Shown: one piece after another, positions 95 through 63,519 of the stretch
Position numbering within the stretch: position 1 is the first letter of the stretch
How the letters are laid out: every line of letters starts with the position of its first letter
From: Mobula hypostoma
Lineage: Eukaryota
Assembly: GCF_963921235.1 (NCBI RefSeq)
Contig: NC_086107.1
Location: 93,746,001-93,810,000 of the forward strand
Length of the DNA: 64,000 bases
Reading direction: 5' to 3'
The notes under the pieces: model-generated
The model's database searches: none
The model's input: only the letters and a program-made list of their open reading frames with translations
What the model was told of the DNA's origin: nothing
Program-made: the position numbers and the translations under genes

Positions 95-250
95 GCATCA
101 GTCCTGATACAGGGTTTCAACCTGAAGCCTTGACAATTCTTCCCTCTTCCCCACCCCCCCACCCCCAGAAGGTGCTGCCTGACCCTTGGTGTTACCCCTG
201 CAGATTGTTGCTTCAGATTCCAGCATCTGCCATCTCCCATGTCTCCATGT
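95..250 (+). mobile_element. Penelope-derived terminal-repeat fragment with degenerate hammerhead motif
   Basis: cagtcctgatacagggtttcaacctgaag... followed by gctgcctgacc...ttccagcatctgc, matching the 3' end of the Penelope at 57173-57600. Confidence 0.6.
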
Positions 251-1004: not shown

Positions 1005-1610
1005 AGGTCACCTACCTACGAGGAAGATGTCAAGAAGTTTAAAAGGATACAGAGAAAATTTATCAGTCCTGCTGAAGGGTCTCAGCCTGAAACGTAGGCT
1101 GTACTCTTTTCATTAGATGCTGCCTGGCCTTCTGAGTTCCTCCAGTACTTTGTGTGTCCTGCTCGGATTTGCAACATCTGCAGATTCTCTCTTGTTTGTT
1201 ACAAGAATGGTGCTAGGATTTGATAACCTGAGTTATAGGGAAATAGGTTGAGACCTTGTTCCCTGGAGTGTAGAATGAGGGGAGATACGGTAAATACAAG
1301 TAGGCTTTTTCCACTGAGTTTGGGTAAGACTAGAACTAGTTATGGGTTAAGGGTGAAAGGTGAAATGTTTAAGGGGAACATGAGGAGGAACTTCTCTCAG
1401 AGACTGACGAGAGTGTGGAACAAGCTGCCGGTGGAAGTGCTGGATGTGGGTTTGATTTCAACATTCAAGAGCAAATTGGATAGGTACACGGATGGGAGAA
1501 GTACGGAGGGCTATGGTCCGGGTGCAGGTAGATGGGACGAGACAGATTAATAATCCAGCATGGACTAGATGGGCTGCAGGGCCTGTTTCTGTACTGTAGT
1601 TTTCTCTAAC
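1005..1610 (+). mobile_element. CR1 LINE 3' fragment interrupted by a Penelope-derived repeat (about 1063-1200)
   Basis: ORF 1248-1550 reads RLFPL...FKGNMRRNF..RVWNKLP..FKSKLDRY, like the CR1 ORF2 C-termini elsewhere in the window; CR1 3' UTR gggcctgtttctgtactgta. Confidence 0.8.
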
Positions 1611-8110: not shown

Positions 8111-8476
8111 GTGAGAGTAAGCGTTTAGCGTGGACTAGAAGGGCCGAGGAGGCCTGTTTCTGTGCTGTAAATGTTATACGGTTATAAAAAAAAGGCAGAT
8201 GAGAGGGGGAAAGTTTAAAGGGGACGTGCGAGGCAAGTTGCTTTACACAGAGCGTGATGGGTAACAAACACACACAATGCTTGAAGAACACAGCAGGTCA
8301 GGCAGCATCTATGGAGGAGAATAAACAGTCGACGTTTCGCACCACGATCCTTCATTGGGACTTAGAGTGTGAGGGGTGCCTGGAATGAGCTGCCAGATAG
8401 TGGAGAAGGGGTGTTGGTGGTGAAGGCAAATAAAGCAGTGGTGTGTAAGAGGCTGATACATAGCAATACATAGCAA

Positions 8477-11400: not shown

Positions 11401-11803
11401 GAGATTAAGGGAGCTAGGACTTAACTCTTTGGAGAGAAGGAGGATGAGAGGATGATAGAGGTGTACAAGATAATAAGAGGAATAGATAGAGTGGATAGCC
11501 AGCGCCTCTTCCCCAGGGCACCACTGTTCAATACAAGAGGACATGGCTTTAAGGTAAGGGGTGGGACGTTCAAGGGGGATATTAGAGGAAGGTTTTTTAC
11601 TCAGAGAGTAGTTGGTGTGTGGAATGCACTGCCTGAGTCAGTGGTGGAGACAATTACACTAGTGAAGTTTAAGAGACTACTAGACAGGTATATGGAGAAA
11701 TTTAAGGTGGGGGCTTATATGGGAGGCAGGGTTTGAGTGTCGGCACAACATTGTAGGCCGAAGGGCCTGTACTGTGCTGTACTATTCTATGTTCTATGTT
11801 CTA
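8477..11803 (+). mobile_element. Second long CR1 LINE of a different subfamily: esterase remnant plus ORF2
   Basis: VGTNNIGRKRNEVLK esterase remnant at about 8477; ORF2 pieces 8849-10516, 10556-11455 and 11452-11736; (ttctatg)n tail ending about 11803. Confidence 0.95.
8849..11736 (+). pseudogene. CR1 ORF2 APE-RT with one stop and one frameshift
   Basis: NARSIRNK, ITETWL, GDFNFP, GDSDH; RT motifs [25 protein letters not shown]. Confidence 0.95.
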
Positions 11804-11808
11804 TTTAA

Positions 11809-11829
11809 TACCGTACCAAAGTCTTAGGC

Positions 11830-11866
<37 letters not shown>

Positions 11867-12370
11867 GTGTGTATATAGCTAGAGTGCCTAAGACCTTTAC
11901 ACGGTACTGTATTAGTCAACGTGAAGCGGAGAGCAAGTTTGTAAATCAGGCGGGAGCAAAGGATGTTGGGAATGGTGAGGGTGAAGCGTCACAGGAGGGG
12001 TAGCAGAGAAGGTGTCAGGGGTGGGGTGTGGTGTGGGTGCGGACACACCCAGCCCTGAGATACCAGGCAAGGTCATTTGATTCCAAACAATTGGTATACT
12101 GATCATTGCAGAATGTCTTTCTGGTGCTTCCCGCTTCCTCTCCTCTCCCTTCCCCTTTTCCCAACCATGATTCCCCTCTCCCTGCCCCCTTCCCACTCTC
12201 AGTCCACAATACAGACCCATATCAGAATCAGGTTTATCATTACTCACATATGTCATGATTTTTGGGTTTTTTTGTGTCAGCAGTACAGTGCAATACATAA
12301 AATTACTACAGTACTGTGCAAGAGTCTAAAACACCCGAGCTGTATACATGTGTTTTTGCATAGGACTGTA
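11809..12370 (+). mobile_element. Composite Tc1-type non-autonomous element, copy A (hairpin mini-MITE, cargo, hairpin mini-MITE)
   Basis: Both ends carry degenerate TACAGTACTGTGCAAAAGTCTTAGGCAC...GTGCCTAAGACTTTTGCACAGTACTGTA modules; the cargo is shared with 7 other copies. Confidence 0.8.
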
Positions 12371-13194
12371 TATGGATCACATCTGGGTTTAAACTAAGAG
12401 ATTTAATTTACTATGGCATTGTGATCGGCACAGATTTCAAGGGCTGAAGGGTCTATTCCTGTGCTGTGCTATTTTCTATTCAAACTTTAATCTCTTTTTT
12501 TATATGCATAGCTACAGAAGATTTTTATAATCTGTTTTTATATGCCTTCCTTGTTTCCTTTCAGATTTTTTTTTAATCTTTATTTTGTGGTCACCCTTTG
12601 CTAGATCCTCAAATCCTTCCAAATCCCAGGCATAGGACAGTTTTCGGAAGCATTGTAAATCACTTCCTTAAATGCAATACTATCTTTAACTTCCCTTGTT
12701 AGTCATGGCTCGATTGCTTTTCCCTTGGGATTTTATTCCTGGAGGGAATGTACACTTGTTGTGAAATATGAATTATGTATTTAAGTATGGAAAGGAAGGC
12801 AACTATAAACTGCAATGTGGATAACAGGTGTGCCTCTCGACTTGCTATCAGACGACAAACAGCCCGGAGGAGCAGATTTAGACAGTTCAGCATTTTAACA
12901 TGTCTACTTAAAATGAGAGATGACTACTACCCAATCTGACTTTACATTATGGACTAAGGTCAGAGGCTTGAAGTGGTGAGGATTTTTGAGAATAACTAGT
13001 GACAAGTTACAGTGAGTAAAAGTTACATTTTTTCTGCATTGAAGCATTCACAGTCAACACACACAAAATACTCAGTAAGTCAGGCAGCATCTAAGGAGAG
13101 GAATAAACAGTGAGTGCGTTGGGATCAGGTCTGGGAAGGAGGGGGTAAGAAGCCAGAATAAGATGATGCTTATAATAGTAGGAATAAGAATCAG

Positions 13195-13680
13195 AAAGGC
13201 TCCAACCTGATTATATGAACAGCAATTTCTCCAATTTCATACTCCTCCTCCCCTCTTTTTTCCATTCCCTACCCTGGTTCCCCTCTTACCCCTTCTTTCT
13301 CCTCACCTGTCCAACATCTGCTAAGCACCCCTCCTCCTTCCCTTTCTCCAATGGTCTACAGTCTTCTCCAATCAGAGTCCTTCTTCTTCAGCCCTAGATC
13401 TTTTCCGCCTATCACCTCTCAGCTTCTCAGTTCACCCTCCCCCCCACTTCTATCACCCAACTAGCTTCACCTATCACCTGCCAGCTTGTACTCCTCCCCC
13501 ACTCCCCCACCTTCTTAATCTGGCTCCCGTCCCCTTCCTCTCCAGTCCTGATGAAGGTTCTCAACCTGAAACGTCAACTGTTTGATCCTCTCCACAGATG
13601 CTGCCTGACCAGCCGAGTTTCTCCAGCATTTTGCGAGGTTTGCTCTGGTTTTCCACCATCTGCAGAAGCTCTTACGTTTA
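13195..13680 (+). mobile_element. Penelope 3' end (end of ORF plus terminal repeat)
   Basis: ctccaacctgattatatgaac...ttctccaatttc corresponds to LQPDGMNIDFSNF of the Penelope ORF at 57594; pyrimidine-rich UTR and hammerhead follow. Confidence 0.75.
13543..13580 (+). ncRNA. Minimal type I hammerhead ribozyme motif
   Basis: cagtc-CTGATGA-aggtt(ctc)aacct-GAAA-cGTC-aactg: intact core, perfect 5-bp helix II, GUC cleavage triplet, helix I cagt/actg with one mismatch next to the core. Confidence 0.7.
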
Positions 13681-15562: not shown

Positions 15563-16311
15563 AATTGTTCAGTAGATCGTCCAGTTATTGTAATACAGCT
15601 GATTCTGTATATTTCTAAAAAAAATTCTTGGTTTTTCTTCAGCAGGTGTCACACCACTCGAATCTGGCAATTTTATAGGTTAATTATTGTCACTGGAATG
15701 TTATTATCTCTCCTCTGAGCATGAGGGGACCGTAAACAAGCAAAAACTGCAGACGCTGGAAATCCAAAGCAAGACACACACAAAATGCTGGAGGAACTCA
15801 GCAGGTCAGGCTGCACCTATGGAAATGAATAAACAGTCGACGTTTCGGGCCGAGACGATCATGACTTTTTTTCTTTTGTCGCTGTTTGTTCTTTGATCCT
15901 ATAACGCTTAACAAAACGGCCATAACCGCCAACTTTTATGCCTCATTCTTGACTTCTGTAGAACCTCAGAAAACAAATATCACCCGATCCAACAAGTCTT
16001 ATGGTCTTATGAAGTGACGGTGATGGGCAATGCACCATTACAACACATTGTATATACACACATACACGTGCACTAGACCTTACCAGGCAGTCAGCAGTGG
16101 AAATGGTAAGCAGCTTCAAATGTCAGGTCGTCAACATCTTGGGGGATCTATCCTGCATGAACCACTTAGATAAAAACCATGAAGAAAGCCTGACAGCATC
16201 TCTTCTTTCTTAGAGGCTTGAAGGAGACTCGGCGTGTTATCGAAGACTGACAAAGTTCAACAAACAGATGGTGAAAAGCATTCTGACTGGTTACATCATA
16301 AGACCGTAAGA

Positions 16312-18208: not shown

Positions 18209-20275
18209 TTATATCGCCAGGGTGCCTAAGACTCTTGCACAGCACTGTATTTGCCAACGCGTTGCGGAGAGCAAGTTTGTAACTCTAGTGGGAGCAACGG
18301 ATTTTGGGAATAGCGAAGGTGCAGTGCGGTGGGAGGGGTGTGGGACAGTTGGCAGAGGAGTTCCAGGGCAGACAGTGTGGGGGTGATGCAGCTGCAGACA
18401 CACCCAGCCCTCAGACACCAGGTAAAGTTCTTTGATTCCAGACAATTGTTCATTGATCAATACAGAATGTCTCTCTGGTGTTTCCCGGTCCATCCCCCTT
18501 TTCCCAACTGTGATTCCACTCTCCCTGCCCTTTTTCCCAGCCATGATTCCCCTCTCCCTTTTCCCAACCATGATTCCCCTCTCCCTTTCCCTTTTCCCAA
18601 CCATGATTCCCCTCTCCCTTCCCCTTTTCCCAACTATGGTTCCCCCTTTCCCTTCCCCTTTTCCCAACCATGATTCCCCTCTCCCTTCCCCTTTTCCCAA
18701 CCATGATTCCCCTCACCCTTCCCCTTTTTCCAACCATGATGCCCTGCTCCTTTTCCCAACCATGATTCCCCTCTCCCTTTCCCTTTTCCCAACCATGATT
18801 CCCTTCTCCCTTCCCCTTTTCCCAACCATGATTTCCCTCTCCCTTCCCCTTTTCCCAACCATGATTCCCCTCTCCCTTTCCCTTTTCCCAACCATGATTC
18901 CCCTCTCCCTTCCCCTTTTCCCAGCTATGGTTCCCCCTTTCCCTTCCCCTTTTCCCAACCATGATTCCCCTCTCCCTTCCCCTTTTCCCAACCATGATTC
19001 CCCTCACCCTTCCCCTTTTTCCAACCATGATGCCCTGCTCCTTTTCCCAACCATGATTCCCCTCTCCCTTTCCCTTTTCCCAACCATGATTCCCCTCTCT
19101 CTTCCCCTTTTCCCAACCATGGTTCCCCCTCTCCCTTCCCCTTTTCCCAACCATGATTCCCCTCACCCTTCCCCTTTTCCCAACCATGATTCCCCTCTCC
19201 CTTTCCCTTTTCCCAACCATGATTCCCCTCTCCCTTCCCCTTTTCCCAACCATGGTTCCCCCCCCTTCTCCTTTTCCCAACCATGATTCCCCTCTCCCTT
19301 CCCCTTTTCCCAACCATGATTCCCCTCACCCTTCCCCTTTTCCCAACCATGATTCCCCTCTCCCTTTCCCTTTTCCCAACCATGATTCCCCTCTCCCTTC
19401 CCCTTTTCCCAACTATGGTTCCCCCTTTCCCTTCCCCTTTTCCCAACCATGATTCCCCTCTCCCTTCCCCTTTTCCCAACCATGATTCCCCTCACCCTTC
19501 CCCTTTTTCCAACCATGATGCCCTGCTCCTTTTCCCAACCATGATTCCCCTCTCCCTTTCCCTTTTCCCAACCATGATTCCCCTCTCTCTTCCCCTTTTC
19601 CCAACCATGGTTCCCCCTCTCCCTTCCCCTTTTCCCAACCATGATTCCCCTCTCCCTTTCCCTTTTCCCAACCATGATTCCCCTCTCCCTTCCCCTTTTC
19701 CCAACCATGGTTCCCCCCTTTCCCCTTTTCCCAACCATGATTCCCCTCTCCCTTCCCCTTTTCCCAACCATGATTCCCCTCTCCCTTCCCCTTTTCCGAA
19801 CCATGATTCCCCTCACCCTTCCCCTTTTCCCAACCATGATGTCCTGCTCCTTTTCCCAACCATGATTCCCCTCACCCTTCCCCTTTTCCCAACCATGATG
19901 CCCTGCTCCTTTTCCCAACCATGATTCCCCTCTCCCTTCCCCTTTTCCCAACCATGATTCCCCTCTCTCTTCCCCTTTTCCCAACCATGGTTCCCCCTCT
20001 CCTTTCCCCTTTTCCCAACCATGATTCCCCTTCTCCCTGCCCCCTTCCCACTCTCAGTCCACAACAGAGACCCATATCAGAATCAGGTTTATCATCACTC
20101 ACAGGTTATGAAATTTGTTTTTGTTTTTTTGTGGCAGCAGTACAATGCAATACATAAAATTACTACCACACTGTGCAAAAGTCTTAGCGCATATATATAT
20201 ATAGTCTTATAGCCTATAGTCATACATACATATATATATACACACACACACCTGAGATTTTTGCACAGTACTGTA
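18209..20275 (+). mobile_element. Composite Tc1-type element, copy C, inflated by an internal minisatellite
   Basis: gggtgcctaagactcttgcacagcactgta at the left, hairpin module at 20164-20275, cargo on both sides of the array. Confidence 0.8.
18497..20040. repeat. 33-bp pyrimidine-rich minisatellite, roughly 46 units
   Basis: Unit ccatgattcccctctcccttccccttttcccaa with recurring variants; 11-aa periodicity (FPTMIPLSLPL) in the ORF track. Confidence 0.95.
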
Positions 20276-20851: not shown

Positions 20852-21406
20852 GGCCCCTGGCATGTAAAATTGCCTCAGGCCTCACCACTAAGATGGCAAG
20901 CACATGAGGATCTCAGCCGTTAAATACTGGAGAAAACACTTCAATGCTGTTAGATGTGACTTGTTCTGAGTTTAGATGGTGTTGTTGAGCTGTCAGGGGT
21001 TCAGACACTCATCACAGGTTTCCCAACCTCTGACCTGCTGTTGTAATGATGGTTACCATATGACTGGTCGAACTCAGGCTCTGGGCAATGGATGTTAATG
21101 ATGGAGCCTCCACAGTAAAATGCCACTGTAAAGGTGGTTCAATTCTCTCTCTTGTTAGAGATGGCCATTGCCTGGCATCAGATCCAGGTTTATTATCACT
21201 GAGTAACACACACAAAACACTGGAGTTTCTCAGCAGGTCAGACAGCATGTATGGAGAGGATAAAGGATCTCAGCCTGAAGTGTTGACTCTTTACTTCTCT
21301 CCATAGATGCTGCCCGACCTGCTGAGTTCCTCCAGCATTTTGTACATTATGCTCTGGATTTCCAGCACCTGCAGAGCCTCCTCTGTTTATCATCACAAAC
21401 AAGTGT

Positions 21407-31745: not shown

Positions 31746-32193
31746 ACCCCCCAACTATCTTCATATCATCTGTACTTTCACTTTCTCTTCAAAAAGTAGT
31801 TATTATGCTGCCTTAACCTTGATACTTGCCTTAAAAGCAAACAATTTAGAAGGAACTGCACCTTCCTAATATTTCTCCTTATTTAAATCGCTCCTACGTA
31901 TTTAACAAAGGCTTAGTTTGTTCCCCTTGATGTCTCCGTCTGCGCCTCAGGGTCAGATCTTGCTTGACAATAGCTCTTATGAAATTGATAGTGATGTTTT
32001 GTTATATTAACAACACTATATAAATACAAGCTGTTATGCCTGGCTGGATGCTATTCCGAAATTCAGTCAGGGCTCTGGGGTTTTGATCCTGTATCCATGG
32101 GATGCTACCTCAATGTTAAATTGGTAAATTGGTTTATCATTGTCAAGTGTACCAAGGCACAGTGGAAAAATGTTGTTTTGCATGCCATCTATA

Positions 32194-32745
32194 TACAATA
32201 CTGTGCACAAGTCTTAGGAACATAAACATAGCTAAGTTGCCTAAGACTTTTGCACAGTACTGTAGTAATTTTATGTATTGCCCTGTACTGCTGCCGCAAA
32301 AAAAGAAACAAATTTCATGATATCTGTGAGTGATGATAAACCTGATTCTGATATGGGTCTCTATTGTGGACTGAGAGTGGGAAGGGGGCAGGGAGAGGGG
32401 AAACATGGTTGGGAAAAGGGGAAGGGAGAGGGGAGGAAGCGGGAAGCACCAGAGAGACATTCTGTAATGATCAACAAACCAATTGTTTGGAATCAAATGA
32501 CCTTGCCTGTATCTCAGGGCTGGGTGTGTCTGCACCCCCACCCCGAACCTCCTGGCACTCCTTCTCTGCCACCTGCACCACGCCCCTTCCCGCGGTGCTC
32601 CACCCTCGCCATTCCCAACAACCTTTGTTCCCGCCAGATTTACAGACTCGTTCTCGATTCCACCACATTGAAAACTACAGTGCTGTGCAAACCTCTTAGG
32701 CACCCTAGTGGTGTATATGAGCCTAAGACTTTTGCACAGTGCAGT
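32194..32745 (-). mobile_element. Composite Tc1-type element, copy E (complete)
   Basis: Hairpin modules at 32194-32264 and 32676-32745 around the shared cargo. Confidence 0.85.
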
Positions 32746-34280: not shown

Positions 34281-35124
34281 CGGTGAAAGGTGAAAGGTGA
34301 AAGTCACAGACTTCCATTTTGTGGGGCCAGGCTGGTTTAACTCAAGCTCTGATCCCCAACCAGACCTTTTGCTCTGAAAGTTCATCCCCCGACCCCCACC
34401 CACCAATATATGAAATGACCACAGATGCAGGTTTCAAAAACAATTTAACCTTCCAGTCCACCTTTTAGTTGAGAACAGCTCAAGAAGAGTGCTGGAGACA
34501 ATAGAGATTCCACAGATGGAGGGAAATCTGGTGTACCACAAATAAAATGCTGGAGGAACTCAGCAGGTCAGGCAGCATCCATGGACAGAAATAAACTGTT
34601 GACTCTTCAGGCTGAGACCCTTTATCAGGATTGAAATACCAACCATTCATTTCTCTCCATAGATGCTGCTTGACTTGACTGAGTTCCTCCAGCATTTTGT
34701 GAGTGTCGCTGAAGAAGAGTCTATCAGATCCCATCTTTGACACTGTCCCAGAGCTGCCAGAGCTGGGGTTCAAAGCAAAGCACACCCCCTCCTGTACAGC
34801 GGCAAGGCAGATGCTGACGGTCGGAACACACCTCGCCTCCTCTCACCCTCCCTCACACATCTCACACCCCCCTCGCACCTCACCCCTACCTCCTACGCTG
34901 AACAGGCAAGGCCATTGTGACAGGGTGTGGCTCCAGGCAACAAGCATTTAAGGTCCAACCCCAGAGGTTAGAACGCAGAATTTGAAGCCTCCACGAGGGG
35001 CACATTTTTTACCCAGAGAGTGGGAGGTGTCTGGAATGGATTGCTGGGTTAGTAGTGGAATCAGGCACTGTGGAGGAGTTCATGAGGGCTTTTAGATGGA
35101 CAGGCGAATACAAAGGGAAGGGAT

Positions 35125-35410: not shown

Positions 35411-36764
35411 GACTTTAATAAGAACGACGCACAGGAGAAGGGCCATCAGTATAAATGGGCATGGAGATCAGCACACCATCGTGGGCCGAACTACCTGCCC
35501 CAGTGCTGTGCTGTTCGATGCTGGATTTGTAAAGTAAAGCAGGTTTTTAAAGAACACGCGCGCGCTCCAGCTTTGCCCTGAGCAAGGTTATCAGAATGCC
35601 TCGGAGATCCCAGTGCACGCAGGGGAACCTGCAAATGCCTGTGATGGGGAAAGTTACGGTAACAGATTGATACAAACTAACACCCCTGCTATAAATAAAG
35701 TAATTGCAGACGACAGCTCAATCTCAGCTACCTGTTATTTTACATATAAATTAGCGAAGCACTTGATTAGTTTACAGGCTGCAGATCACCCTAGGTTTAT
35801 GTCGGTCTATATATAAATCATACAAACCCCTCAATCCTCCCGCCAAGTATCAGCTATTCCGCATAAAGACTACTGACACATTTTACTCAGGTAACACTCT
35901 CGTAGCTCTTTAAATAGACTCCAGTCTGTAGCTCCTGTTGGGGTGCTTTTCATATTAGATTTGAGCCTGAAATCACATCTAGATAGTTGATATTCTTTCC
36001 ATAAACCTCTCCACCTGCTCGAGCCCCTTCGATTCCAAATATTAAACATAGTACAGGAACAGGCCTTTCGGCCTGCTTGCCAATTTATACTCTTCCTTCA
36101 CCACCACGCCCCCCCCGCCCCACCTTCTTGCTGTGGCTTCTTCCCCCTTCCCTTCCAGGCCCGATGAAGGGTTTCAGCCCAAAATGTCGACTCTTTATTC
36201 CCCTCCATAGATCCTGCCTGGCCTGCTGAGTTGCTCTCGCATTTTGTATGTCTTGCCCTGGATTTCCAGCATCTGCAGAATCTCTTGTGTCTAGGGAGTT
36301 GAAAGGAGGTGTGGCAGGTATCTGGACTGTGCTGGCAGAGGCAGATTCCAGAGAGGCATTTAAGAGGGTTTTAGATGGACATGTGAATGTGCAGAGTGAA
36401 GTGGCAAGTACCATATGAACGATATCATGTGCAGAATCTCTTGTGTTTATGATCTTCAATGCACAGTGTTGTGCTGAATTAATTAAGCTGGTAATCAAAT
36501 GACCTCCCAAACTAATCCGTTCTGCCTACAAAACGTCCACATCCCTCCATTCTCTGCACATTCATGTGCCTACCTAAGGGCCGCTAAGATGCCTCTATCA
36601 TATTTTCCCCCACCAATACCCCCGGCAGTGCCTTCCAGACACCCACGCCCCTCTGAACAAAAGCTTTGCCCCACACACCTCCTTTGAATTTACCCCCTCT
36701 CACCCTAAATGCATGCCCTCTAGTAAAGAAAAAGATTAGCTTTAATAGTCATTGTATAACGGAG

Positions 36765-39220: not shown

Positions 39221-40174
39221 ATAAAGCTCTCAGCACCTCAATTAGAATCCAGCATGTAACCCACTCCCAGTTATTCTTTATCCTACACATAAATTCACTC
39301 ACATCGCAGTCCATGACACAGCTGGGAGATTATCAGTCCTGTCTCTAACCCTGTGCACACCCACTTAATGACTTTGCCCAGAAGACTGTCATAACATATA
39401 CAGACCACACAAATACCTCAATTACGACCCTGACTATAGTTCTCTCTTGCCAGCCACTTCTCTATCTAGGGACCACTCATAATATACTGCATCCACTCCC
39501 TGGCATTTCAATACAAATCCTTTCAGTCAAATTCCAGGCTCTCTCTAAGGTGTCCAATGCTCCAGATACAAACCAAGCGTGACCCAGAGTAAGTTTCTAG
39601 CCTGTAACTGCAGGCATTAATTTAAAAAAGGTATTGATTATCTATAAAACATTTAAAGGTTTTGATTAGCTTAAATCTTCTCTCTCACTATTAAGTGTCC
39701 GGTTACCTATAAACCATCGACAGCCTCAGTTACACTGCGCCGTCTGCCAATCTGTTTACAGGCCGTCCCCAGGGTAATGAACAAGCATAAAAACAAGGGA
39801 TCCAGCTGGTCAGGCAGCAACTGCGGGCGGGAATAAACAGTCGATGTTTCGGGCCGATACTCTTCATCGGGTCTGGTTTTTACGAATGTCCATATGATGA
39901 TTTTGCAAACAAGTTCAAGAATGTGTAAAAATCACTGGACATAATAACCACACATCCGTGGTCATGAAGGGCATTAAAAGCACATTAATTGATAAAAAAT
40001 AACAATCACTAAAAGTGGAGAGAAAGCAAAAACTGCTTGTGGAGTTGAAAGTACATAGACTTTTAGAGTTAATCATATGTGAGCTCACTTGTATATAGGG
40101 TTTCTGGAAGTCGGGTATTCAAACCAGAGTCAGCCTGTATAATGACCCAAAAAACTTTTGAGGCATCCCTTAAT

Positions 40175-52760: not shown

Positions 52761-53649
52761 TCTGGGGTTTTATTTTCTGTGTCCCCTGTTCCTGCTTTAA
52801 ATTCCCATCTTATTACGCTCATTGCTGCCCGCTACCCGGAAACATCGGAATTAGTGCAGTATAACCGTGGGAGATTGTCACGGATGCGTCACTTGCAATC
52901 ACAAGACTCTGGTGGACAGTGATAATGCAAATTACCCTTGTCTGGTGGTGTGACAGGCGACATGGGAGCAGTGTGGCCTCGGCTGTGGTGAGGACTAGGC
53001 CTCAAGCCTCGGGCTTGCCTGCCGCTGCAAACCAGGTGAGAGATGCAGAAGCATTTACAGCATGGCGTCCGAGCTCGGCTGGGCCCTGGCCCTGGCCTCC
53101 CGTGTTCAAGCAGTGGAATGATGGGCTGTATGGCGTGTGTCTGCACACTGCCAGGAGACTGTACCATTGATAGCTGGACATTGTACGTCAGAGTCTTGGA
53201 CCACATACATTATTTTATACATACATCCATTATGTTATTTTTCAAGTGAATATGCTTCTTTGCTCACTACTGTGAATTATGTTACTCGCTATTTTTGAAT
53301 GTTTGCTTGCTATTTTTGAATGTTTTGCACCTTGGCCACAGAGGAGCTCTGTCTCATTCAGTTGTATCTATGTATGGTTTGAATGATAATTCAACTTGAT
53401 GTGATTTATTCACCCTAGTAAATACAAAAGTAGAATATTTGGAAACAAGAGACTGCCAACCCTGGAATCTGGAGCATAAGAACAATATGCTGGAAGAACT
53501 CAGTGGGTCAAGCAGCATGTGTAGAAAGGGAAGAATGGTCAACAATGCAAGGTTTTGACCCGAAATGTTGACAATTCTTTTCCTCCCACAGGGGCCGTTC
53601 GATGCACTAAGCACTTCAAGCAGAGTGGTTGTTATTTTGTTTAGAGATA

Positions 53650-56040: not shown

Positions 56041-57172
56041 TTGGACAGCATAGGCTCGTTGGGCCAGAAGGGCCTGTTGTACCTCTAAATAAAAATCTTT
56101 AAGCAGTTTCTTCTAAACATTTACCTGCAGTCCTAAAGCCTTCCTGGAGGATGCCACACCCCTCCTTCCCCACTGTTCCAGCAGCTAGCTGCTCCCATTC
56201 TAATCCATCTTCAATATTGTATGAGACTTCTACAATATTTATCTCCTGATCTGTCTGGCTGACAGAGCTTATATATAAATACTAAAGCTGATGCTTAAAA
56301 TTGCAGTTACAGTATATTATCTTCCATATAAATACCAGGGAAGTCTTCCAAGGCCTCGGTGACAGTGTTAAGTTGATGTTGTCTATTTAAATATTCGCAC
56401 AAACAAAAGCAATAAGACTCATTTGTCAGTGCGATGCATCTTGTCTCTAGCCTCTTCTCTTCAGTGTTCTTCCTCCTTATCTTCAAGAGGGATGATGCAG
56501 TTTCCCTCTTGTGGCCACTTTATTAGGTACACCTGTGCACCTGCTGTTAATGTAAATATCTAATCAGCCAGTCATGAGCCAGCAATGCAATCCATAAGAG
56601 CATGCAGACATGGTCAAGAGGTTCAGTTTTCATGGTAACTCCTCCTTGCTTTTTCTCACTGCCTCCCCCCAATAATTTTAGTTGATTTTAGGTAACGATT
56701 TAATAAAGTCTAAGGATTCTGCTATGCCTCAATATATTAAGGAAAATTTTTACTGATGGATCAAAAGAAAACTTAACTGGGAATGTTGGTGTGGCTGTTT
56801 TTCTGCCTGAATTACAGGTAACAATAAAGAACTGACTTACTAGCCATTTATCAGTATACACACCAGAATTGGTTGCCATCACTTTAAGCTTACAGAGGGT
56901 GGAGGAAATCTGTCCATGGAAAGTTGTAATTTGTTCAGGTTCCCTTCAGGTTTTGATGAGTCTTAAAACAGGTCAATCTCGCACTGAGTCAGATTTACTG
57001 TTGGACGTTCATCAAACATTATACAAAGTATTGCTTTATACATTTGCCTCTTATCAGTCCCTGCGCATAAATGTGTAGAGGGGAATGCGCAAGTTGATTG
57101 ATTAGCTAAAAAAGCTGTTAAAAGCTCAGCAGTGGATATAGACCTTCCACTTAGCAAAGCAGAAGCTAAGAG

Positions 57173-58820
57173 CAGGAATTCTGCAGATGCTGGAAATTCA
57201 AGCAACACACATAAAAGTTGCTGGTGAACGCAGCAGGCCAGGCAGCATCTCTAGGAAGAGGTGCAGTCGACATTTCAGGCGAGACCCTTCGTCAGGACTA
57301 ACTGAAGGAAGAGTGAGTAAGAGATTTGAAAGTGGGAGGGGGAGGGGGAGATCCAAAATGATAGGAGAAGACAGGAGGGGGAGGGATGGAGCCGAGAGCT
57401 GGACAGGTGATTGGCAAAGGGGATACGAGAGGATCATGGGACAGGAGGCCTAGGGAGAAGGAAAGGGGGAGGGGGGACCCAGAGGATGGACAAGGGGTAT
57501 AGTCAGAGGGACAGAGGGAGAAAAAGGAGAGTGAGAGAAAGAATGTGTGTATAAAAATAAATAACGGATGGGGTACAAGGGGGAGGTGGGGCATTAGCAG
57601 AAGTTAGAGAAGTCAATGTTCATGCCATCAGGTTGGAGGCTACCCAGACGGAATATAAGGTGTTGTTCCTCCAACCTGAATGTGGCTTCATCTTTACAGT
57701 AGAGGAGGCCATGGATAGACATGTCAGAATGGGAATGGGATGTGGAATTAAAATGTGTGGCCACTGGGAGATCCTGCTTTCTCTGGCGGACAGAGCGTAG
57801 GTGTTCAGCAAAGCGGTCTCCCAGTCTGCGTCGGGTCTCGCCAATATATAAAAGGCCACATTGGGAGCACCGGACGCAGTATATCACCCCAGCCGACTCA
57901 CAGGTGAAGTGTCGCCTCACCTGGAAGGACTGTCTGGGGCCCTGAATGGTGGTAAGGGAGGAAGTGTAAGGGCATGTGCAGCACTTGTTCCGCTTACATG
58001 GATAAGTGCCAGGAGGGAGATCAGTGGGGAGGAATGGGGGGGATGAATGGAAAAGGGAGTCGCGTAGGGAGTGATCCCTGCAGAAAGCAGAGGGGTGGGG
58101 AGGGAAAGATGTGCTTAGTGGTGGGATCCCGTTGGAGGTGGCGGAAGTTACGGAGAATAATATGTTGGACCCGGAGGCTGGTGGGGTGGTAGGTGAGGAC
58201 CAGGGGAACCCTGTTCCTAGTGGGGCGGCAGGAGGATGGAGTGAGAGCAGATGTGCGTGAAATGGGGGAGATGCGTTTGAGAGCAGAGTTGATGGTGGAG
58301 GAAGGGAAGCCCCTTTCTTTAAAAAAGGAGGACATCTCCCTCGTCCTGGAATGAAAAGCCTCATCCTGGGAGCAGATGCGGTGGAGACAGAGGAATTGCG
58401 AGAAGGGGATGGCATTTTTGCAAGAGACAGAGTGAGAAGAGGAATAGTCCATATAGCTGTGAGAGTCAGTAGGCTTATAGTAAACATCAGTGGATAAGCT
58501 GTCTCCAGGGATAGAGACAGAAAGATCTAGAAAGGAGAGGGAGGTGTCGGAAATGGACCAGGTAAACTTGAGGGCAGGGTGAAAGTTGGAGGCAAAGTTA
58601 ATAAAGTCAACGAGTTCAGCATGCGTGCAGGAAGCAGCGCCAATGCAGTCGTCGATGTAGCGAAGGAAAAGTGGGGGACAGATACCAGAATAGGTACGGA
58701 ACATAGATTGTTCCACAAAGCCAACAAAAAGGTAGGCACAGCTCGGACCCATACGGGTGCCCATAGCTACACCTTTAGTTTGGAGGAAGTGGGAGGAGCC
58801 AAAGGAGAAATTATTAAGAG
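57173..58820 (-). mobile_element. Penelope-like element (RT C-terminal part, GIY-YIG endonuclease, 3' terminal repeat)
   Basis: GVAMGTRMGPS, FLRYIDD, FLDL, YYKPTDSH; VIYCVRCSQCGLLYIGETRRRLGDRFAEH; frameshift near 58060. Confidence 0.95.
57264..57304 (-). ncRNA. Minimal type I hammerhead ribozyme motif in the Penelope terminal repeat
   Basis: Minus strand agtc-CTGACGA-agggtctcgcct-GAAA-tGTC-gact. Confidence 0.7.
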
Positions 58821-60449
58821 GGGTAACTTAGCTTACATTTGAAAATGTTTTTTCCCCTCAACTCTCTACTCCACACTCCAGTCTAGTTGGTGACGGCAAT
58901 GCACTTTTAAGTGGGACTTAAAGCCAACCGCCATAAAAAGTCAGGAAAAGAAGAGGTTCAGTTGTTGTTCAGACCAAATGGGGAAGAAATGTGATTTAAG
59001 TAACTTTGATCGTAGAACGATTGTTGGTGCCAGATGGGGTGGTTTGAGTATCTCAGAAACTGCTTACTTCCTGGGATTTTCACCACAACAGTCTCCAGTG
59101 TTCAAGGAAAATGGTGCGAAAACAAAAAAACACCCAGTTCTGTGGGCAAAAATGCCTTGTTAATGAGAGAGGTCAGAGGAAGATGGTTGAAAGCTGACAA
59201 GAATGCGACAGTAACTCAAATAACCACACATTACATCAGTGGTATGCAGAAGAGCATCTCTGAACACACAAAACATTGAATCTTGAAGTAGATGGGCTAC
59301 AGCAGAGGAAGACCATGAACATACATTCAGAGGCTACTTTATAAGGTACAGGAGATACCCAGTAAAGTGGCGACTCGGTGCATGTCTCCCACAGCCACAT
59401 CAATGAACCGGGTATGTTTTCTATGACAAAGTGATCACTGTTACAAAGTCAAGTGCTTTCAAAAACAATTCCAGATTTAGTCAAAGGTTTGAAATCATTT
59501 TTTTTTTGGCCGCAGTGGGATTCTAACTCACATCTCTGTATCAAAGGTCCAGAACTCTAGCTGCTGCTCTGGTGATTGAATCTCGAGGTTATTGTGCCTC
59601 GCTGCATTTGTACTTATTTACTTATAGAGTGTCCATCATGACCTCAGGGTTGTGGAGAGCATCTCATAGTCAAAAATTATTTTTGAAATACAGCCATTTC
59701 GCTAAAACTGGAAGCACAGCATCTAAGTTCAGCACAGCAGCCTTCTCTGTTCCATTTCAGATCTCCATCATTTGACACTACTTTAAATGTTGGGGCCGAA
59801 ATCTTAATTTCCTCTCTTCAGGCAGTTAGCTTGGCACATTTCTCTTTCTTTTAAAGATATTTAGAAATGTTTTAATTCCATTTATTCCCCGTCAAGAGCT
59901 GCTACTGCTGACTCAAGAGAGGGGCAGACCGAAACATTGCTTTGACATAATATTAATTCCCAATGCTCTCAGGGGACTGGAACATGGGAGTCTGTAAACG
60001 GCGCCCTCTATTGGGCACGCAGCAGAAGATCAACTCAATGCCTCACGAACTACAGAGACTTCATTCGAAATATTGCAGAGTTCAGGTCTCCCAAGCCAGG
60101 AAAGGACCTACATTGGAAAGAGGGAATGCAGTGCAGATTAATCAGATTGATTCCTGGACTAGAGATGACAAGAGATGGCACTGGGGGCTGAAGAAGAGAG
60201 CAGGACCAGGGGCTAGTGTACGTGCATGGGTGGGTGTAGGGGAGGGAGGGACGAACGCAGCTTGCTTTGCTGTTGTGGCTTTGTTGCTTGCTATGTCCTG
60301 TGTTGTCCTCCCGACAATTTTGGACGTGCTATGTTGTGGTGACACTTGCGGGCTGCCCCCAGCACATCCTTGGGTGTGTGGTTTGTTGACGCAAATGACA
60401 CGTTTCACTGTACTGTATGTTCCGACAAATAAATCTGAATCTAAAGCTA

Positions 60450-61145: not shown

Positions 61146-61189
61146 CACCTTAAATCCACAGCTTCTTGGGGAAAAAAACACATTCTGAC

Positions 61190-61860
61190 CACCCATGATC
61201 CTCTCATATCCCTTTTGCCAATCACCTGTCCAGCTCTTGGGTCCATCCCTCCCCCTCCTGTCTTCTCCTATCATTTTGGATCTCCCCCTCCCCCTCCAAC
61301 TTTCAAATCTCTTACTATCTCTTCTTTCAGTTAGTCCTGACGAAGGGTCTCGGCCTGAAACGTTGACTGTACCTCTTCCTAGAGATGCTGCCTGGCCTGC
61401 TGCGTTCACCAGCAACTTTGATGTGTGTTGCTTGAATTTCCAGCATTTGCAGAATTCCTGTTGTTTGCGTTTCTGACCACTTGACAGCATAAACATCGAT
61501 TTCTCTAACTTCCACTAATTTCTCATCCCACCCATTCTCTCCTGTTCCATTCCCCATTCTCACCCCTTCTCTTCACCTCAGCTGCCCATCACATTCCCCT
61601 AGTGCCCTCCCCTAGCAGATTCCTTCTTCCATATCCCTTTACCTCTTCCACCAATCAGCTCCCAGCTTCTCACTTCATCCCCCCTCCCCGCCCACCTACC
61701 CTCAACCTCACCTGGGCTCACCTGCCACCTCGTGCTCCCTCCCCTCCCCACAGCTTGTTCCACTTTCTCCTGACAAAGGTCTCAGTCTGAAATGTCAACT
61801 GTTTAGTCCCCTCTGTAGATGCTGCCGACCTTCTGAGTTCCTCCAGCATTTTGTGTGCTA
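61190..61860 (+). mobile_element. Two tandem Penelope terminal-repeat fragments
   Basis: 61190-61465 is near-identical to the reverse complement of 57173-57440; the second piece starts at the INIDFSNF ORF end near 61490. Confidence 0.85.
61333..61368 (+). ncRNA. Minimal type I hammerhead ribozyme motif
   Basis: agtc-CTGACGA-agggtctcggcct-GAAA-cGTT-gact. Confidence 0.7.
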
Positions 61861-62579
61861 TTTTGATCCTTTCTAAGACCCTCATAATCTCATAGATTTC
61901 TGTTAGATTATTTTAAGGACCAGGTACAAGGTGGGAGAAGGTTGAGGAATCATCAAACTCAAGTCTTCCTGGAAGAGGTGCTGCCGTTGTCTATCCTGTC
62001 TCCACCAACACCACAAAACTCTGTGTCGGGCTAAACAGTTTCTCTGTCAGATTATTTTAAATTTGCTGGATTTTTTTTTATATACAAACCCAAGTTCCAC
62101 AGGGATGGTGTGTTTGAATAATTGATCAATGGAGAAATATTGCTGATTGCAATGTTATTTTTGTGGCAGTCAGTCATGCAGCTTTGCTCTTGGGTCACAG
62201 GGGTCATAGAGTTACTCAGCATGAAACAGACCCTTTAGCCCAGCTCATCTTCGCTGACCATGATGTCTAATCCCACTTGCCCCAAAACCTTTCCTTTCCT
62301 AACCAACCCAAGTTTATTCTCCTGATCTTCATCAGGGCCCTGGCCTGAAACGTCAGCTGTTTACTCCCCTCCATAGACTCTGCCTGACTTGTTGAGTTCC
62401 TCCATCATTTTGTGTGTGTTTTCACCAAGTGAGGAGTTCTTACTTTTCTCTCGGAATCAGAGTCAAGTTTAATATCGCTGATATAAATGTTGTGAAATCC
62501 ATTGTTTTGTGGCAGCAATACAGTGCAATACACAAAAAAAGTATTAATTACAATCAGAAATATTTATAAAATATAAATT

Positions 62580-62584
<5 letters not shown>

Positions 62585-62618
<34 letters not shown>
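62585..62618. repeat. (CA)n microsatellite
   Basis: Direct observation. Confidence 0.95.
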
Positions 62619-62623
<5 letters not shown>

Positions 62624-62734
62624 TTGAGTCCTGAGGAAGGGTCTCAGCCCTTCTTGACTGCTTGTTCATTTCCACGGATACGACCTGACCTGCTGACTTC
62701 CTCCAACAATCTTTATTTATTTTGATCTACTGAA

Positions 62735-62970
62735 GTACAACGCAGAGTAGGCCCTTGAGCCGTGCCACCCGGCAACACCCGAATTAACGCTAGCCTAATC
62801 ACGGGACAATTCACAATGACCAATTAACCTACCAACTGGTACGTCTTTGGACTGCAGCAGGGAACCGGGGCACCCGGAGGTGATGGGGAGAACGTACAAA
62901 CTCCTTACAGACAGCAGAGGGAGTGGATCACTGGAACTGTAAAGCGCCGTGCTAACCACTACGCCACCAT
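62735..62970 (-). mobile_element. V-SINE (HE1-like)
   Basis: gaaccggggcacccggagg..ggagaacgtacaaactccttacagac..gctaaccactacgccacc. Confidence 0.7.
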
Positions 62971-63519
62971 GTGTGTCGATTTGGATTTCCAGCATCTACA
63001 GAATTTCTGGTGTGTACAAATTTAGAAAGCAGTGCAAAAAGAGAGCCAAAAGATAGTGAGCTGGCGTCAGAAATCCAACGGTGAGGGGAAGAAGCTGTTC
63101 GTAAAACATTGAGTGTGTGTTTCTCCTTCCTGTTGGTAGTAACTAGAAGAGAAGATTTCTAATACAAGGTTAAGGTTTTTTTTAAGAATGTATTTGACCT
63201 CATCCTCTGGGTGTGGAGACTGATTCTGTCCTTAGGATCTGAAAAAGAGAAGGCAAGTGCAATAGAACCAATCCTGTGATGACACCTGTACACCCCTGCC
63301 ACATGTCAGGACCATATTAGGGGAAAGAAGAAAATTACAAAATAAGAGACAAACCGGAGGTCACCTGAAATCTATAAACAACTGAGGTCCAAATTGAAAA
63401 GCATCAAAAATCTTCCCCTTTGCCTCAGGATGTGAGGCCGGCCAGATCACCAGACACCTGGGGAGCTGTGAAGTATCAGTCTCCAAAAGTCCCGTATCCA
63501 GCACTTTGGAGAAAAGCGT

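What the first reader, a model, noticed from the sequence alone, without database searches (positions are those of the whole stretch)
13543..13580. Dispersed hammerhead-ribozyme family carried by Penelope-derived repeats
Seen: about 15 short repeats share a consensus cagtc-CTGA(T/C)GA-agggtctcggccc/t-GAAA-CGTC-gactg followed by atagatgctgcctgacctgctgagttcctccagc. Copies lie near 100, 1064, 8326(-), 13543, 15835(-), 21265, 34595(-), 36158, 39838(-), 53545, 57264(-), 61333, 61768, 62320 and 62628. The best cores are at 13543, 57264 and 61333. The same motif sits in the 3' terminal repeat of the coding Penelope at 57173-58820. Established: the type I hammerhead core is CUGANGA / GAAA / NUH, and Penelope-like elements are known to carry minimal hammerheads whose helix III is a tiny palindrome (here AC-GT) completed by dimerisation. 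Inference: this genome has a very high-copy, SINE- or retrozyme-like family of ribozyme-bearing Penelope ends, some possibly still cleavage-competent. The 13543 copy has a different but perfectly paired helix II (aggtt/aacct), which looks like covariation.
Basis: partly seen in the sequence, partly recalled or inferred. Interest (0 to 1): 0.8.

Follow-up and report, generated by a model that had tools for sequence, protein, structure and literature searches.

The report
Minimal hammerheads on Penelope retrotransposon tails
The short repeats are the 3' ends of Penelope-like retrotransposons, each carrying the known helix-III-less "minimal" hammerhead ribozyme motif; the kind is already described, but this genome holds an unusually large number of them.

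Summary
The family consensus has CUGAYGA / GAAA / ACGUC, a 5-bp helix I and a 4-bp helix II.

It is the minimal hammerhead of metazoan Penelope-like elements (PLEs) described by Cervera & De la Pena 2014. It has no helix III loop, a palindromic ACGU, and an extra A between positions 9 and 10.1. It sits about 300 nt after the RT/GIY-YIG reading frame and 100-135 nt from the element's 3' end.

The genome (3.48 Gb) holds:
- 85,855 intact cores, against 23 in the reversed-pattern control;
- 45,139 identical 34-mers;
- at least 442,669 copies of the 3' box.

Copies show PLE hallmarks: 5' truncation, head-to-head inverted pairs and an optional ~30-nt tail.

Three points are not supported:
- The 13543 helix II "covariation" is a singleton, unique in the genome, and the family shows no covariation above shuffles.
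- There are no retrozyme-like tandem arrays in the window.
- No Rfam hammerhead model matches.

New detail: roughly 12% of young copies begin exactly at the first bases of helix I, and none pile up at the cleavage site. Cleavage itself is untested. This is a new member of a known kind, of moderate-low interest.

The parts
13543..13581 (+). Minimal hammerhead motif of the finding. The core is intact (CTGATGA / GAAA / ACGTC). Helix I has 4 of 5 pairs (C-A at 1.1-2.1). Helix II pairs only in a shifted register (AGGTT/AACCT).
   Evidence: the variant is unique in the genome
13544..13667 (+). Old (subfamily B-like) PLE 3' unit with tail. A C-rich PLE 3' UTR continues upstream of 13543.
100..230 (+). 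Decayed 3' unit that starts at (c)AGTC next to unrelated flank.
1064..1186 (+). 3' unit with tail that starts at CAGTC next to unrelated flank. The core is mutated (CTGCTGA, GAAACGTA).
8266..8362 (-). 3' unit without tail; core mutated.
13049..13123 (-). 5'-truncated 3' unit (model positions 23-105) without a complete hammerhead.
15746..15866 (-). 3' unit with tail that starts at AGTC after an A-rich flank. It has a 4-nt deletion in core/helix II.
21202..21376 (.). Head-to-head inverted pair: 21202-21264(-) without tail and 21259-21376(+) with tail. It forms a long hairpin.
34507..34712 (.). Head-to-head inverted pair: 34507-34632(-) with tail and 34631-34712(+) without tail.
36157..36281 (+). 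3' unit with tail; PLE 3' UTR lies upstream; core decayed.
39796..39874 (-). 3' unit that starts at AGAC next to unrelated flank; core has 2 mismatches.
53452..53638 (.). Head-to-head inverted pair: 53452-53550(-) with tail and 53545-53638(+) without tail.
57178..57299 (-). 3' unit with tail of the coding PLE remnant (young subfamily A). The hammerhead has a 1-nt deletion and GAAATGTC.
   Evidence: repeat cover in other runs ends near 57161-57180
57594..58827 (-). 5'-truncated PLE coding remnant. The RT C-terminal frame (58021-58827, YIDD) and the CX4CxxC + GIY-YIG endonuclease frame (57594-58526) lie in different frames.
61333..61455 (+). Young subfamily A 3' unit with tail; about 145 nt of PLE 3' UTR lies upstream. 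The hammerhead is complete except GUC>GUU.
61769..61880 (+). Old 3' unit with a long C-rich 3' UTR upstream; core decayed.
62333..62435 (+). Old 3' unit; the 5' part of the hammerhead is lost.
62627..62717 (+). 3' unit that starts at AGTC directly after a (CA)n microsatellite; GAAA box deleted.
62970..63004 (+). Isolated tail fragment (model positions 92-125).

Best explanation
The repeats are the 3' terminal module of Penelope-like retrotransposons (PLEs), probably of the Neptune type. The module runs in this order: polypyrimidine tract, CAG, a 37-nt minimal type I hammerhead, a variable 15 nt, a conserved box (AGATGCTGCCTGRCCTGCTG), and one of two alternative 3' ends about 30 nt apart (the PLE 'tail').

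The hammerhead has helix I cAGUC/GACUG. Its core is CUGAYGA, followed by an extra A. Helix II is GGGU-CUCG-GCCY. Then come GAAA and the palindrome ACGU, which stands in for helix III, and cleavage is expected after GUC.

Shown here:
- the identity of the motif;
- its fixed place behind the PLE reading frame;
- its conservation between an old (about 16% diverged) and a young (about 2% diverged) subfamily, while the next 15 nt diverge;
- neutral decay of inserted copies;
- PLE-type insertion products (5' truncation, inverted head-to-head pairs, tail on one arm, target duplications).

Inferred from the literature, not tested here: a single copy cannot form helix III. Two copies pair ACGU with ACGU to build two active sites, probably helped by the element's protein, and the cut processes PLE transcripts.

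Nearly all genomic copies, including 13543, are dead insertion relics and not working ribozyme genes.
For: Core and helices:
- The consensus of 39 unbiased hits carries the full core.
- 85,855 exact cores are found against 23 in the control, and 45,139 exact 34-nt motifs against 0.
- Helix I is paired in 81.6% of cells and helix II, in the bulged-A register, in 89.8%. Slid controls give 15-42%.

PLE linkage:
- RT (YIDD) and CX4CxxC + GIY-YIG frames lie upstream in the window.
- The same arrangement occurs in L002/L003, L011 (twice), L013 and L010. The last two are divergent copies at 55-59% amino-acid identity.
- Atlas neighbours are GIY-YIG / reverse-transcriptase clusters.

PLE insertion hallmarks:
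- 6 clear head-to-head pairs among the 39 hits.
- 3' ends fall in two classes: 10 at model positions 98-108 and 20 at 120 or beyond.
- The tail is on one arm only in 5 of 6 pairs.
- Target duplications occur in L001, L004 and L006.
- The literature describes the same features.

Constraint on master copies: the subfamily A and B consensuses agree at 35/37 positions in the hammerhead (differing at N7 and one CpG site), at 7/15 in the next stretch and at 19/20 in the box.
Against: - No Rfam hammerhead family matches: none in the window at E<=10, and none on a 201-nt stretch holding an intact copy.
- There is no covariation above shuffles. 3 pairs show a change on both sides, and 36 of 500 shuffles reach that.
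- Monomer folds are not unusually stable (z about -1). The minimum-energy fold pairs core GA(C/U)G with CGUC at the cleavage site.
- ACGU/ACGU is worth only -1.7 to -3.1 kcal/mol, while the overlapping palindrome GUCGAC gives -8.1.
- G10.1 faces U, not C, in 14 of 23 sampled copies and in most young copies listed.
- 5' ends of copies do not pile up at the cleavage site. 0 of 39 hits start there. The boundary rate is 1.5%, against a 1.1% background and 5.9% at the helix I hotspot.
- 0 of 2 long copies examined has an upstream hammerhead-bearing repeat.
- Published PLE min-HHRs cleave poorly in vitro.
Confidence: 0.85

Rival explanations
1. A separate non-autonomous, SINE-like family: a unit of about 100-135 nt that begins at the first base of helix I, is transcribed from its own start site (the sequence around it fits an initiator, YYA+1NWYY), and is copied in trans by PLE reverse transcriptase.
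For: - 7 of 25 sampled copies with a complete hammerhead begin at (C)AGTC/GTCC next to unrelated, mostly A/T-rich flank.
- Of 22 junctions within 20 nt upstream among the first 100 young copies, 13 fall at -6 to -3.
- Genome-wide first-mismatch rates for the young subfamily: -3, 4.1%; -4, 8.1%; -5, 8.9%; -6, 2.9%; -7, 2.7%.
- The bases before AGTC are A, G and C in about equal numbers, as for random flanks.
- In D. virilis Penelope the repeat holds a TATA-less internal promoter with an initiator (passages of PMC2377424).
Against: - 78 of the first 100 young copies continue into PLE 3' UTR, so the class is a minority (my arithmetic: about 12%, or about 16% after correcting for chance identity).
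- No RNA data are available.
- No polymerase III features were looked for or seen.
- In D. virilis the start site lies about 120 nt upstream of the hammerhead, not at it.
- The hotspot could instead be a preferred stop or template-switch point of the reverse transcriptase.
Confidence: 0.2
2. The motif is conserved for a role other than self-cleavage, for example as a hairpin bound by the element's protein or as part of a promoter. The hammerhead core would then be a passenger that rarely or never cuts in vivo.
For: - The predicted monomer fold is a closed hairpin that hides the core.
- No 5' ends accumulate at the cleavage site.
- In Anolis, hammerhead mutants did not change insertion in vitro, and no RNA-seq reads ended at the site (passages of PMC11167929).
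- PLE clades without hammerheads proliferate well (passages of PMC8557442).
Against: - Every core nucleotide is kept between subfamilies that differ at 8 of the next 15 positions. The only core difference is at N7, the one free core position.
- The Anolis PLE hammerhead cleaves with protein, and C3G/G8C rescue behaves as expected.
- Dimeric PLE hammerheads cleave in vitro.
Confidence: 0.25
3. A metazoan non-LTR retrozyme: head-to-tail tandem units, each with a hammerhead, expressed as small circular RNAs.
For: Retrozymes are reported to derive from PLE terminal repeats (abstract and Results of bioRxiv 10.64898/2026.07.22.740005). Four same-strand copies lie within 1.4 kb at 61333-62717.
Against: - Those four copies share only the repeat, not the spacers, and belong to different-aged subfamilies.
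- The close pairs seen are inverted, not direct.
- The hammerhead lacks the helix III loop and the loops for tertiary contacts that are typical of retrozyme hammerheads.
Confidence: 0.03

Closest known systems
min-HHR of metazoan Penelope-like elements (Cervera & De la Pena 2014, PMC4209133)
   Same: - Core only, with no helix III or loop 3.
- Palindromic 15.2-16.2.
[quoted passage not shown]
- Helix I of 4-5 bp.
- Located in PLE terminal repeats.
- Mostly solitary copies from truncated PLEs.
- Nearby opposite-strand pairs.
   Different: - Helix II has 4 bp here (7-8 in Schistosoma, 6 in D. virilis).
- 11.1 is mostly U (a G-U pair instead of G-C).
- Very low motif variability within the young subfamily.
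- Copy number is about ten times the largest count in that paper (about 9,000 in Xenopus tropicalis).
Hammerhead of the Anolis Poseidon element PAc (PMC11167929, passages)
   Same: A vertebrate PLE with a hammerhead in the terminal repeat, two reverse-transcription start sites that give an optional 30-40 bp tail, and insertion chemistry acting on both DNA strands.
   Different: In PAc the reading frame starts inside the hammerhead. Here the motif lies about 300 nt after the stop codon, and the ATG present in CTGATGA opens only about 21 codons (my reading of the consensus; not followed up). Protein-assisted cleavage was shown there and is untested here.
Metazoan non-LTR retrozymes (PMC7229834 abstract; bioRxiv 10.64898/2026.07.22.740005)
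   Same: A type I hammerhead topology, and descent from PLE terminal repeats.
   Different: Retrozymes are tandem arrays with canonical hammerheads and circular RNAs. Here the copies are dispersed or inverted, the motif is minimal, and there is no evidence of circles.
Schistosoma SINE-like elements with hammerheads (Sm-alpha/Sj-alpha; named in PMC6765202, passages)
   Same: Short dispersed high-copy units that consist of little more than a start region and a hammerhead.
   Different: Those carry a canonical hammerhead with helix III and a polymerase III-type promoter (the promoter type is my recollection, not from a call). Here the unit is a PLE 3' end.
Canonical type I hammerhead families of Rfam
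   Same: The same catalytic core and helix I/II topology.
   Different: There is no closed helix III, and no covariance model matches even at E<=10.

Membership tests
Hammerhead ribozyme, type I (canonical) | Conserved core C3 U4 G5 A6 N7 G8 A9 / G12 A13 A14 / A15.1-U16.1 / cleavage after H17 | tested here: met
   The family consensus carries it. 4 of 25 sampled full-length motifs are intact. There are 85,855 exact cores genome-wide against 23 in the control.
Hammerhead ribozyme, type I (canonical) | Helices I and II flanking the core | tested here: met
   81.6% and 89.8% of cells are paired, against 15-42% for slid controls. Both helices appear in the minimum-energy folds. There is no covariation beyond shuffles.
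Hammerhead ribozyme, type I (canonical) | Closed helix III (stem plus loop) within one molecule | tested here: not met
   GAAAC is followed directly by GUC. A15.1-U16.1 and C15.2-G16.2 would enclose no loop.
Hammerhead ribozyme, type I (canonical) | Match to a curated covariance model | tested here: not met
   There are 0 gathering hits. No hammerhead family is among the 23 rows at E<=10 in the window or the 28 rows on L013:8500-8700.
Hammerhead ribozyme, type I (canonical) | Self-cleavage | not testable with these tools
   No RNA run on record; the laid runs were contigs only.
PLE minimal hammerhead (min-HHR) | No helix III/loop 3; palindromic 15.2-16.2, so that two copies can build a shared helix III | tested here: met
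   ACGU is in the consensus. The intermolecular duplex is weak, -1.7 to -3.1 kcal/mol.
PLE minimal hammerhead (min-HHR) | [quoted passage not shown] | tested here: met
   Column 13 (A) is at least 90% conserved. The bulged-A register pairs 89.8% of cells, against 66.1% for the register that pairs this A.
PLE minimal hammerhead (min-HHR) | G10.1-C11.1 pair | tested here: inconclusive
   G-U in 14, G-C in 6 and unpaired in 3 of 23 copies. The young subfamily mostly has U.
PLE minimal hammerhead (min-HHR) | Sits in the terminal repeat of a PLE | tested here: met
   It lies about 300 nt downstream of the EN frame in the window and in L002/L003, L011 (twice), L013 and L010, and in L017-L021.
Penelope-like element | RT joined to a C-terminal GIY-YIG endonuclease | tested here: inconclusive
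   - The GIY-YIG Pfam hit has E=5.9e-4 and 20.5 bits, below the cutoff of 22.6. The RT fragment gives no Pfam hit.
- YIDD and GIY...YIG are visible in the translations.
- Atlas neighbours carry GIY-YIG or are named reverse transcriptase.
- No phylogeny was made.
Penelope-like element | Frequent 5' truncation, an inverted 5' copy, and a 30-40 bp tail at one end | tested here: met
   Loose ends at two 3' termini (57174/57180 and 57202/57203) appear in other runs. The features are as described in PMC8557442 and PMC11167929.
Penelope-like element | Direct partial tandem (pseudo-LTR) in front of full-length copies | tested here: not met
   0 of 2 long copies examined (755-aa and 961-aa open frames) has a 3' unit within 2.0 or 1.4 kb upstream. 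The sample is too small to generalise.
Neptune-type PLE | CX2-5CxxC motif in the linker before the endonuclease | tested here: inconclusive
   CKRNKCCTC is present in the 57594-58526(-) frame. The motif's meaning is taken from passages of PMC8557442. There is no tree.
Non-LTR retrozyme | Head-to-tail tandem units, each with a hammerhead | tested here: not met
   Self-comparison of 61000-63300 finds only the repeat parts alike. Close pairs are inverted.

The most novel reading that the evidence does not exclude
A discrete unit of about 100-135 nt may be a self-standing non-autonomous retroelement. It starts at the first base of helix I, so the minimal hammerhead would be the very 5' end of the RNA, and it ends at the PLE reverse-transcription entry site. 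It would be transcribed from an initiator-like start at AGTCC and copied by PLE protein. With 10^5-10^6 copies, this genome would then be the largest known natural store of hammerhead motifs, and a natural experiment on what the ribozyme does for retrotransposition.
Probability: 0.2. Interest if true: 0.6.

Novelty: new member of a known kind. Interest (0 to 1): 0.35.

Why it matters
What the hammerhead does in Penelope-like elements is still open. The papers seen here propose transcript processing or circle formation, report weak cleavage in vitro, and note that some PLE clades do without it. This genome offers three things for that question:

- **Scale and youth.** The family is very large and young: 45,139 identical 34-nt motifs, and RT frames open for up to 961 aa. 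Expression and cleavage could therefore be measured on many near-identical loci.
- **A conservation signal.** Two lineages of different age keep every core base while neighbouring sequence drifts.
- **A negative clue.** Inserted copies do not start at the cleavage site but at the 5' edge of the ribozyme. That argues against cleaved RNA being the usual template, and it points to a start site or a reverse-transcriptase stop at that edge.

For annotation, it explains a repeat that makes up an estimated 1-3% of the sequence, and many hairpins that look like microRNA precursors.

Tried and rejected
- **Rfam.** Tried at gathering and at E<=10 on the window and on an intact copy. No hammerhead family matched. 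The hits are microRNA-like hairpins caused by inverted pairs or microsatellites, plus a weak U6 match at 1012-1113 (22.6 bits, cutoff 44) that I take as chance.
- **Fuzzy regular expression for the core.** It found only 6 copies and was replaced by the profile search.
- **RNA evidence.** No RNA holder was listed. The four runs laid were contigs, so no starts or ends could be read.
- **Cofolding of two copies.** It gives only an extended duplex. The double-hammerhead is a pseudoknot in that representation and could not be scored.
- **Wider random sampling of the genome.** Only 6 of 20 first regions existed.
- **Upstream pseudo-LTR in two long copies.** None was found.
- **A downstream promoter element at the fly spacing from AGTCC.** Considered and dropped: only the ACGT core fits, and it is shifted by 2 nt.
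- **A 3' splice site as the origin of the 5' ends.** Considered and rejected. The polypyrimidine-CAG lies 0-5 nt off the hotspot, and differently so in the two subfamilies.
- **Lunse et al. on dimeric PLE hammerheads.** The paper is not held. I know it only through the review PMC6765202.
- **The search of earlier findings.** It returned nothing.
Full report
**1. Observation**

The stretch 13543-13580 reads cagtcCTGATGAaggttctcaacctGAAACGTCaactg. The core pattern CTGAYGA-N13-GAAACGTC at up to 2 mismatches matches 5 times in the window. The expectation is 0.13, and 0 of 100 shuffles reach 5.

I built a profile from ten window copies and iterated it three times with nhmmer. The search space was the window plus six arbitrary 10-kb genome stretches, 124 kb in all. 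It finds 39 copies at E<=0.01, of which 20 are in the window.

The majority consensus of these 39 hits is cAGTC-CTGATGA-A-GGGTCTCGGCCT-GAAA-CGTC-GACTG. About 15 variable bases follow, and then AGATGCTGCCTGACCTGCTGAGTTCCTCCAGC.

**2. Scale**

The window lies in a 3.48-Gb assembly. Exact pattern counts genome-wide, each with a reversed-pattern control, are:

| Pattern | Matches | Control |
|---|---|---|
| 28-place core | 85,855 | 23 |
| 34-place motif including 3 bp of helix I | 45,139 | 0 |
| 19-nt downstream box, up to 2 mismatches | 442,669 (lower bound per the tool) | 0 |

In the unbiased 124 kb, 26 of 39 hits meet the box criterion. The density of 39 hits per 124 kb extrapolates to roughly one million copies. 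That last figure is my extrapolation from a small sample.

Four of the 25 sampled copies with a complete motif have an intact core. This fits the genome-wide ratio.

For comparison:
- Cervera & De la Pena 2014 give about 4,000 minimal hammerheads for coelacanth and about 9,000 for Xenopus tropicalis (PMC4209133, text read).
- A 2026 preprint gives at most 14,255 active retrozyme copies, in axolotl (Results read).
- My two literature searches showed no report of a count like the present one. I do not know the organism and cannot exclude one.

**3. What carries the motif**

On the minus strand, 58021-58827 is open and encodes the C-terminal part of a reverse transcriptase (…FLRYIDDC…). In another frame, 57594-58526 encodes CKRNKCCTC followed by GVIYCVRCSQCGLLYIGET….
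- Pfam gives GIY-YIG at E=5.9e-4, just below its cutoff, and nothing for the RT piece.
- The nearest ESM Atlas clusters carry GIY-YIG or are named reverse transcriptase (a lead only).

The hammerhead of this copy lies at 57262-57299, about 300 nt after the stop. The copy ends near 57178.

The same order, EN frame then about 300 nt then hammerhead, recurs at several places:
- in L002/L003;
- twice in L011;
- in L013 and L010, where the proteins are only 55-59% identical and the 3' units are of the old type.

It also recurs in five further loci found with the RT fragment. So both the old and the young repeat types are 3' ends of Penelope-like elements.

The RT fragment has 118,584 first-look candidates in the genome. 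The 143 that were scored are 91-93% identical, with frames open for up to 961 aa. The family is therefore young.

**4. Anatomy against the literature**

The published minimal hammerhead of metazoan PLEs is defined by:
- absence of helix III and loop 3;
- a palindromic 15.2-16.2;
- a G10.1-C11.1 pair;
- a short helix I.

All are present here except that 11.1 is mostly U (G-U in 14 of 23 copies, G-C in 6). Helix II has 4 pairs closing CUCG, which is shorter than in the published examples.

I counted pairs on 25 copies (alignment A1):
- Helix I is paired in 81.6% of cells.
- Helix II, in the bulged-A register, is paired in 89.8%.
- The whole structure is paired in 85.2%, against 15-42% when the partners are slid.
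Its fourth pair forms in 1 of 25 copies, the 13543 copy itself.

Covariation is not above shuffles: 3 pairs have a change on both sides, and 36 of 500 shuffles reach that. The covariation score is 0.180 against 0.171.

**5. The 13543 copy**

Its exact 28-nt core occurs once in the genome, at the window position itself, so it is not a lineage. Against the old-type consensus it differs at 3 of 37 hammerhead positions and 13 of 87 others. This is ordinary decay. It also has a C-A mismatch at the helix I pair next to the cleavage site.

The perfectly paired AGGTT/AACCT is real. It is best read as chance in one decayed copy, not as covariation.

**6. Selection on masters, decay in copies**

I split the hits by a diagnostic word:
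- The young type: 5 copies, 2.3% non-CpG divergence from their consensus, 10.2% at CpG sites.
- The old type: 24 copies, 16.0% and 35.2%.

Within copies the hammerhead decays as fast as the rest (2.8 vs 2.1%, and 16.7 vs 15.7%).

Between the two consensus sequences, agreement varies by segment:

| Segment | Agreement |
|---|---|
| Hammerhead | 35 of 37 positions |
| Next stretch | 7 of 15 |
| Conserved box | 19 of 20 |
| Following stretch | 20 of 28 |
| Tail | 22 of 24 |

The two hammerhead differences are N7 (C or U, the free core position) and one CpG site. This pattern is what purifying selection on the transposing lineage would give. It is my main argument that the motif matters to the element.

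The CpG inside ACGU and the one at C17-G1.1 explain why most old copies have lost the core.

**7. Insertion products**

Twelve of the 39 hits form six head-to-head inverted pairs. A seventh pair is doubtful. Such pairs are common genome-wide.

3' ends fall into two classes. Ten end at model positions 98-108 (…TGTGTGTT). Twenty reach 120 or more and run on to …CTGCAGAATTCCTGTTGTT, about 30 nt further. Nine end elsewhere.
- In 5 of 6 pairs, and in L001 and L004, only one arm has the extension.
- Target duplications of 14-15 bp flank L001, L004 and L006.
- Contigs of other runs break off into diverse A/T-rich sequence at 57174/57180 and 57202/57203. These are the same two termini.

These are the published PLE features (passages): heavy 5' truncation, an inverted 5' copy, a 30-40 bp tail at one end, and two internal reverse-transcription start sites with both DNA strands extended.

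One copy (62627) sits directly after a (CA)n run.

**8. Where copies begin**

None of the 39 hits starts at the predicted cleavage product (model position 33 +/- 2). Seven of the 25 with a complete motif start at (C)AGTC or GTCC next to unrelated flank.

Among the first 100 genome matches of a pattern that shows 20 upstream bases:
- 78 continue into PLE 3' UTR (74 of the young type, 4 of the old type);
- 22 have a junction within 20 nt, and 13 of those lie at -6 to -3.

I then measured, for the young type, how often the first non-canonical base falls at each position:

| Position | Count | Rate |
|---|---|---|
| -3 | 2,785 of 67,399 | 4.1% |
| -4 | 5,251 of 64,614 | 8.1% |
| -5 | 5,301 of 59,363 | 8.9% |
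| -6 | 1,568 of 54,062 | 2.9% |
| -7 | 1,413 of 52,494 | 2.7% |

At -4 and -5 the three other bases are about equally common in the first 100 rows, as for random flanks. At -6, -7 and -3 the transition product dominates, as for mutation.

So roughly 12% of young copies begin with AGTC or GTC, the first bases of helix I. This is my arithmetic, taking the excess over a 2.8% background.

At the cleavage site the corresponding rate is 815 of 54,011, or 1.5% (purine before GACTG…). My estimates from the first 100 rows give about 5.9% at -5 and about 1.1% at -6.

The hotspot is a new detail. I cannot tell whether it marks an RNA start or a stop of reverse transcription. In favour of an RNA start, both subfamilies fit YYA+1NWYY there, a consensus I recall and did not take from a call.

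**9. Folding**

- A single copy folds into helix I, helix II and an extra GA(C/U)G:CGUC pairing that hides the core and the cleavage site. The energy is -11.5 kcal/mol for an intact young copy and -8.6 for 13543, with z-scores near -1.
- The intermolecular ACGU duplex is worth -1.7 to -3.1 kcal/mol.
- The overlapping GUCGAC palindrome is worth -8.1.

This agrees with the reported inactivity of monomers, the weak activity of dimers, and the protein assistance seen in Anolis. It is not evidence of activity here.

**10. What it is not**

- No Rfam hammerhead model matches.
- No tandem retrozyme-like array exists in the window.
- No upstream direct repeat was found before the two long copies that I could examine.
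- No RNA data could be had.

**11. Verdict**

It is wrong on covariation and on the retrozyme likeness, and only partly right on 'SINE-like'.

The thing is a very large new member of a known kind, the minimal hammerhead of Penelope-like elements. Two points are worth following up: the conservation of the whole core between lineages, and the 5'-end hotspot at the ribozyme's edge together with the lack of one at the cleavage site.

Noticed in passing
window 21228-21326; L013:8501-8577: Head-to-head PLE insertions form near-perfect hairpins of 60-100 nt. These score as microRNA-precursor-like in Rfam, below the gathering scores (up to 49 bits, E 4e-9 on a short stretch). At genome scale they could be a large source of hairpin RNA.
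   Followed up: partly
window 57594-58827(-); L017-L021: The RT frame stops and the endonuclease continues in another frame at the same place in the window copy and in all 5 other loci fetched. The loci were chosen by likeness to the window copy, so this may be one subfamily's shared frameshift and not a programmed one.
   Followed up: partly
window 11803-11912, 20165-20274, 32190-32271: Three hairpin-like repeats share arms (…AAGTCTTAGGCA… / …TGCCTAAGACTT…) around (TA)n/(CA)n loops, and give weak microRNA-like Rfam matches. They look like another short inverted-repeat element family.
   Followed up: no
window 60680-61149(-): Open frames here read like the C-terminal part of a reverse transcriptase of a different retroelement, directly upstream of the young PLE end at 61186-61465. 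By eye only; no search was made.
   Followed up: no
window 62560-62626: A (CA)n microsatellite directly abuts the 5' end of the PLE unit at 62627. This recalls the microsatellite insertion bias described for some PLEs.
   Followed up: no
L022+L019 (one contig), joined positions 2134-2558: There is a 212-nt internal tandem duplication (91% identity) near the start of the 755-aa open frame of one PLE copy.
   Followed up: no
window 57170-58830 in public runs: Runs under at least 12 coded organism labels hold 17-63% of the sampled 31-mers of this PLE copy, at very high summed depth in three of the four runs laid. The young PLE family is therefore shared nearly unchanged among several sequenced organisms.
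   Followed up: partly
3' unit, model positions 52-62 and 106-120 (e.g. window 61383-61393 and 61436-61450): AGATGCTG in the conserved box is complementary to CAGCATCT in the tail. A second CCAGCA lies just before the tail-less terminus. This may be the stem at which reverse transcription starts at its two alternative sites.
   Followed up: no
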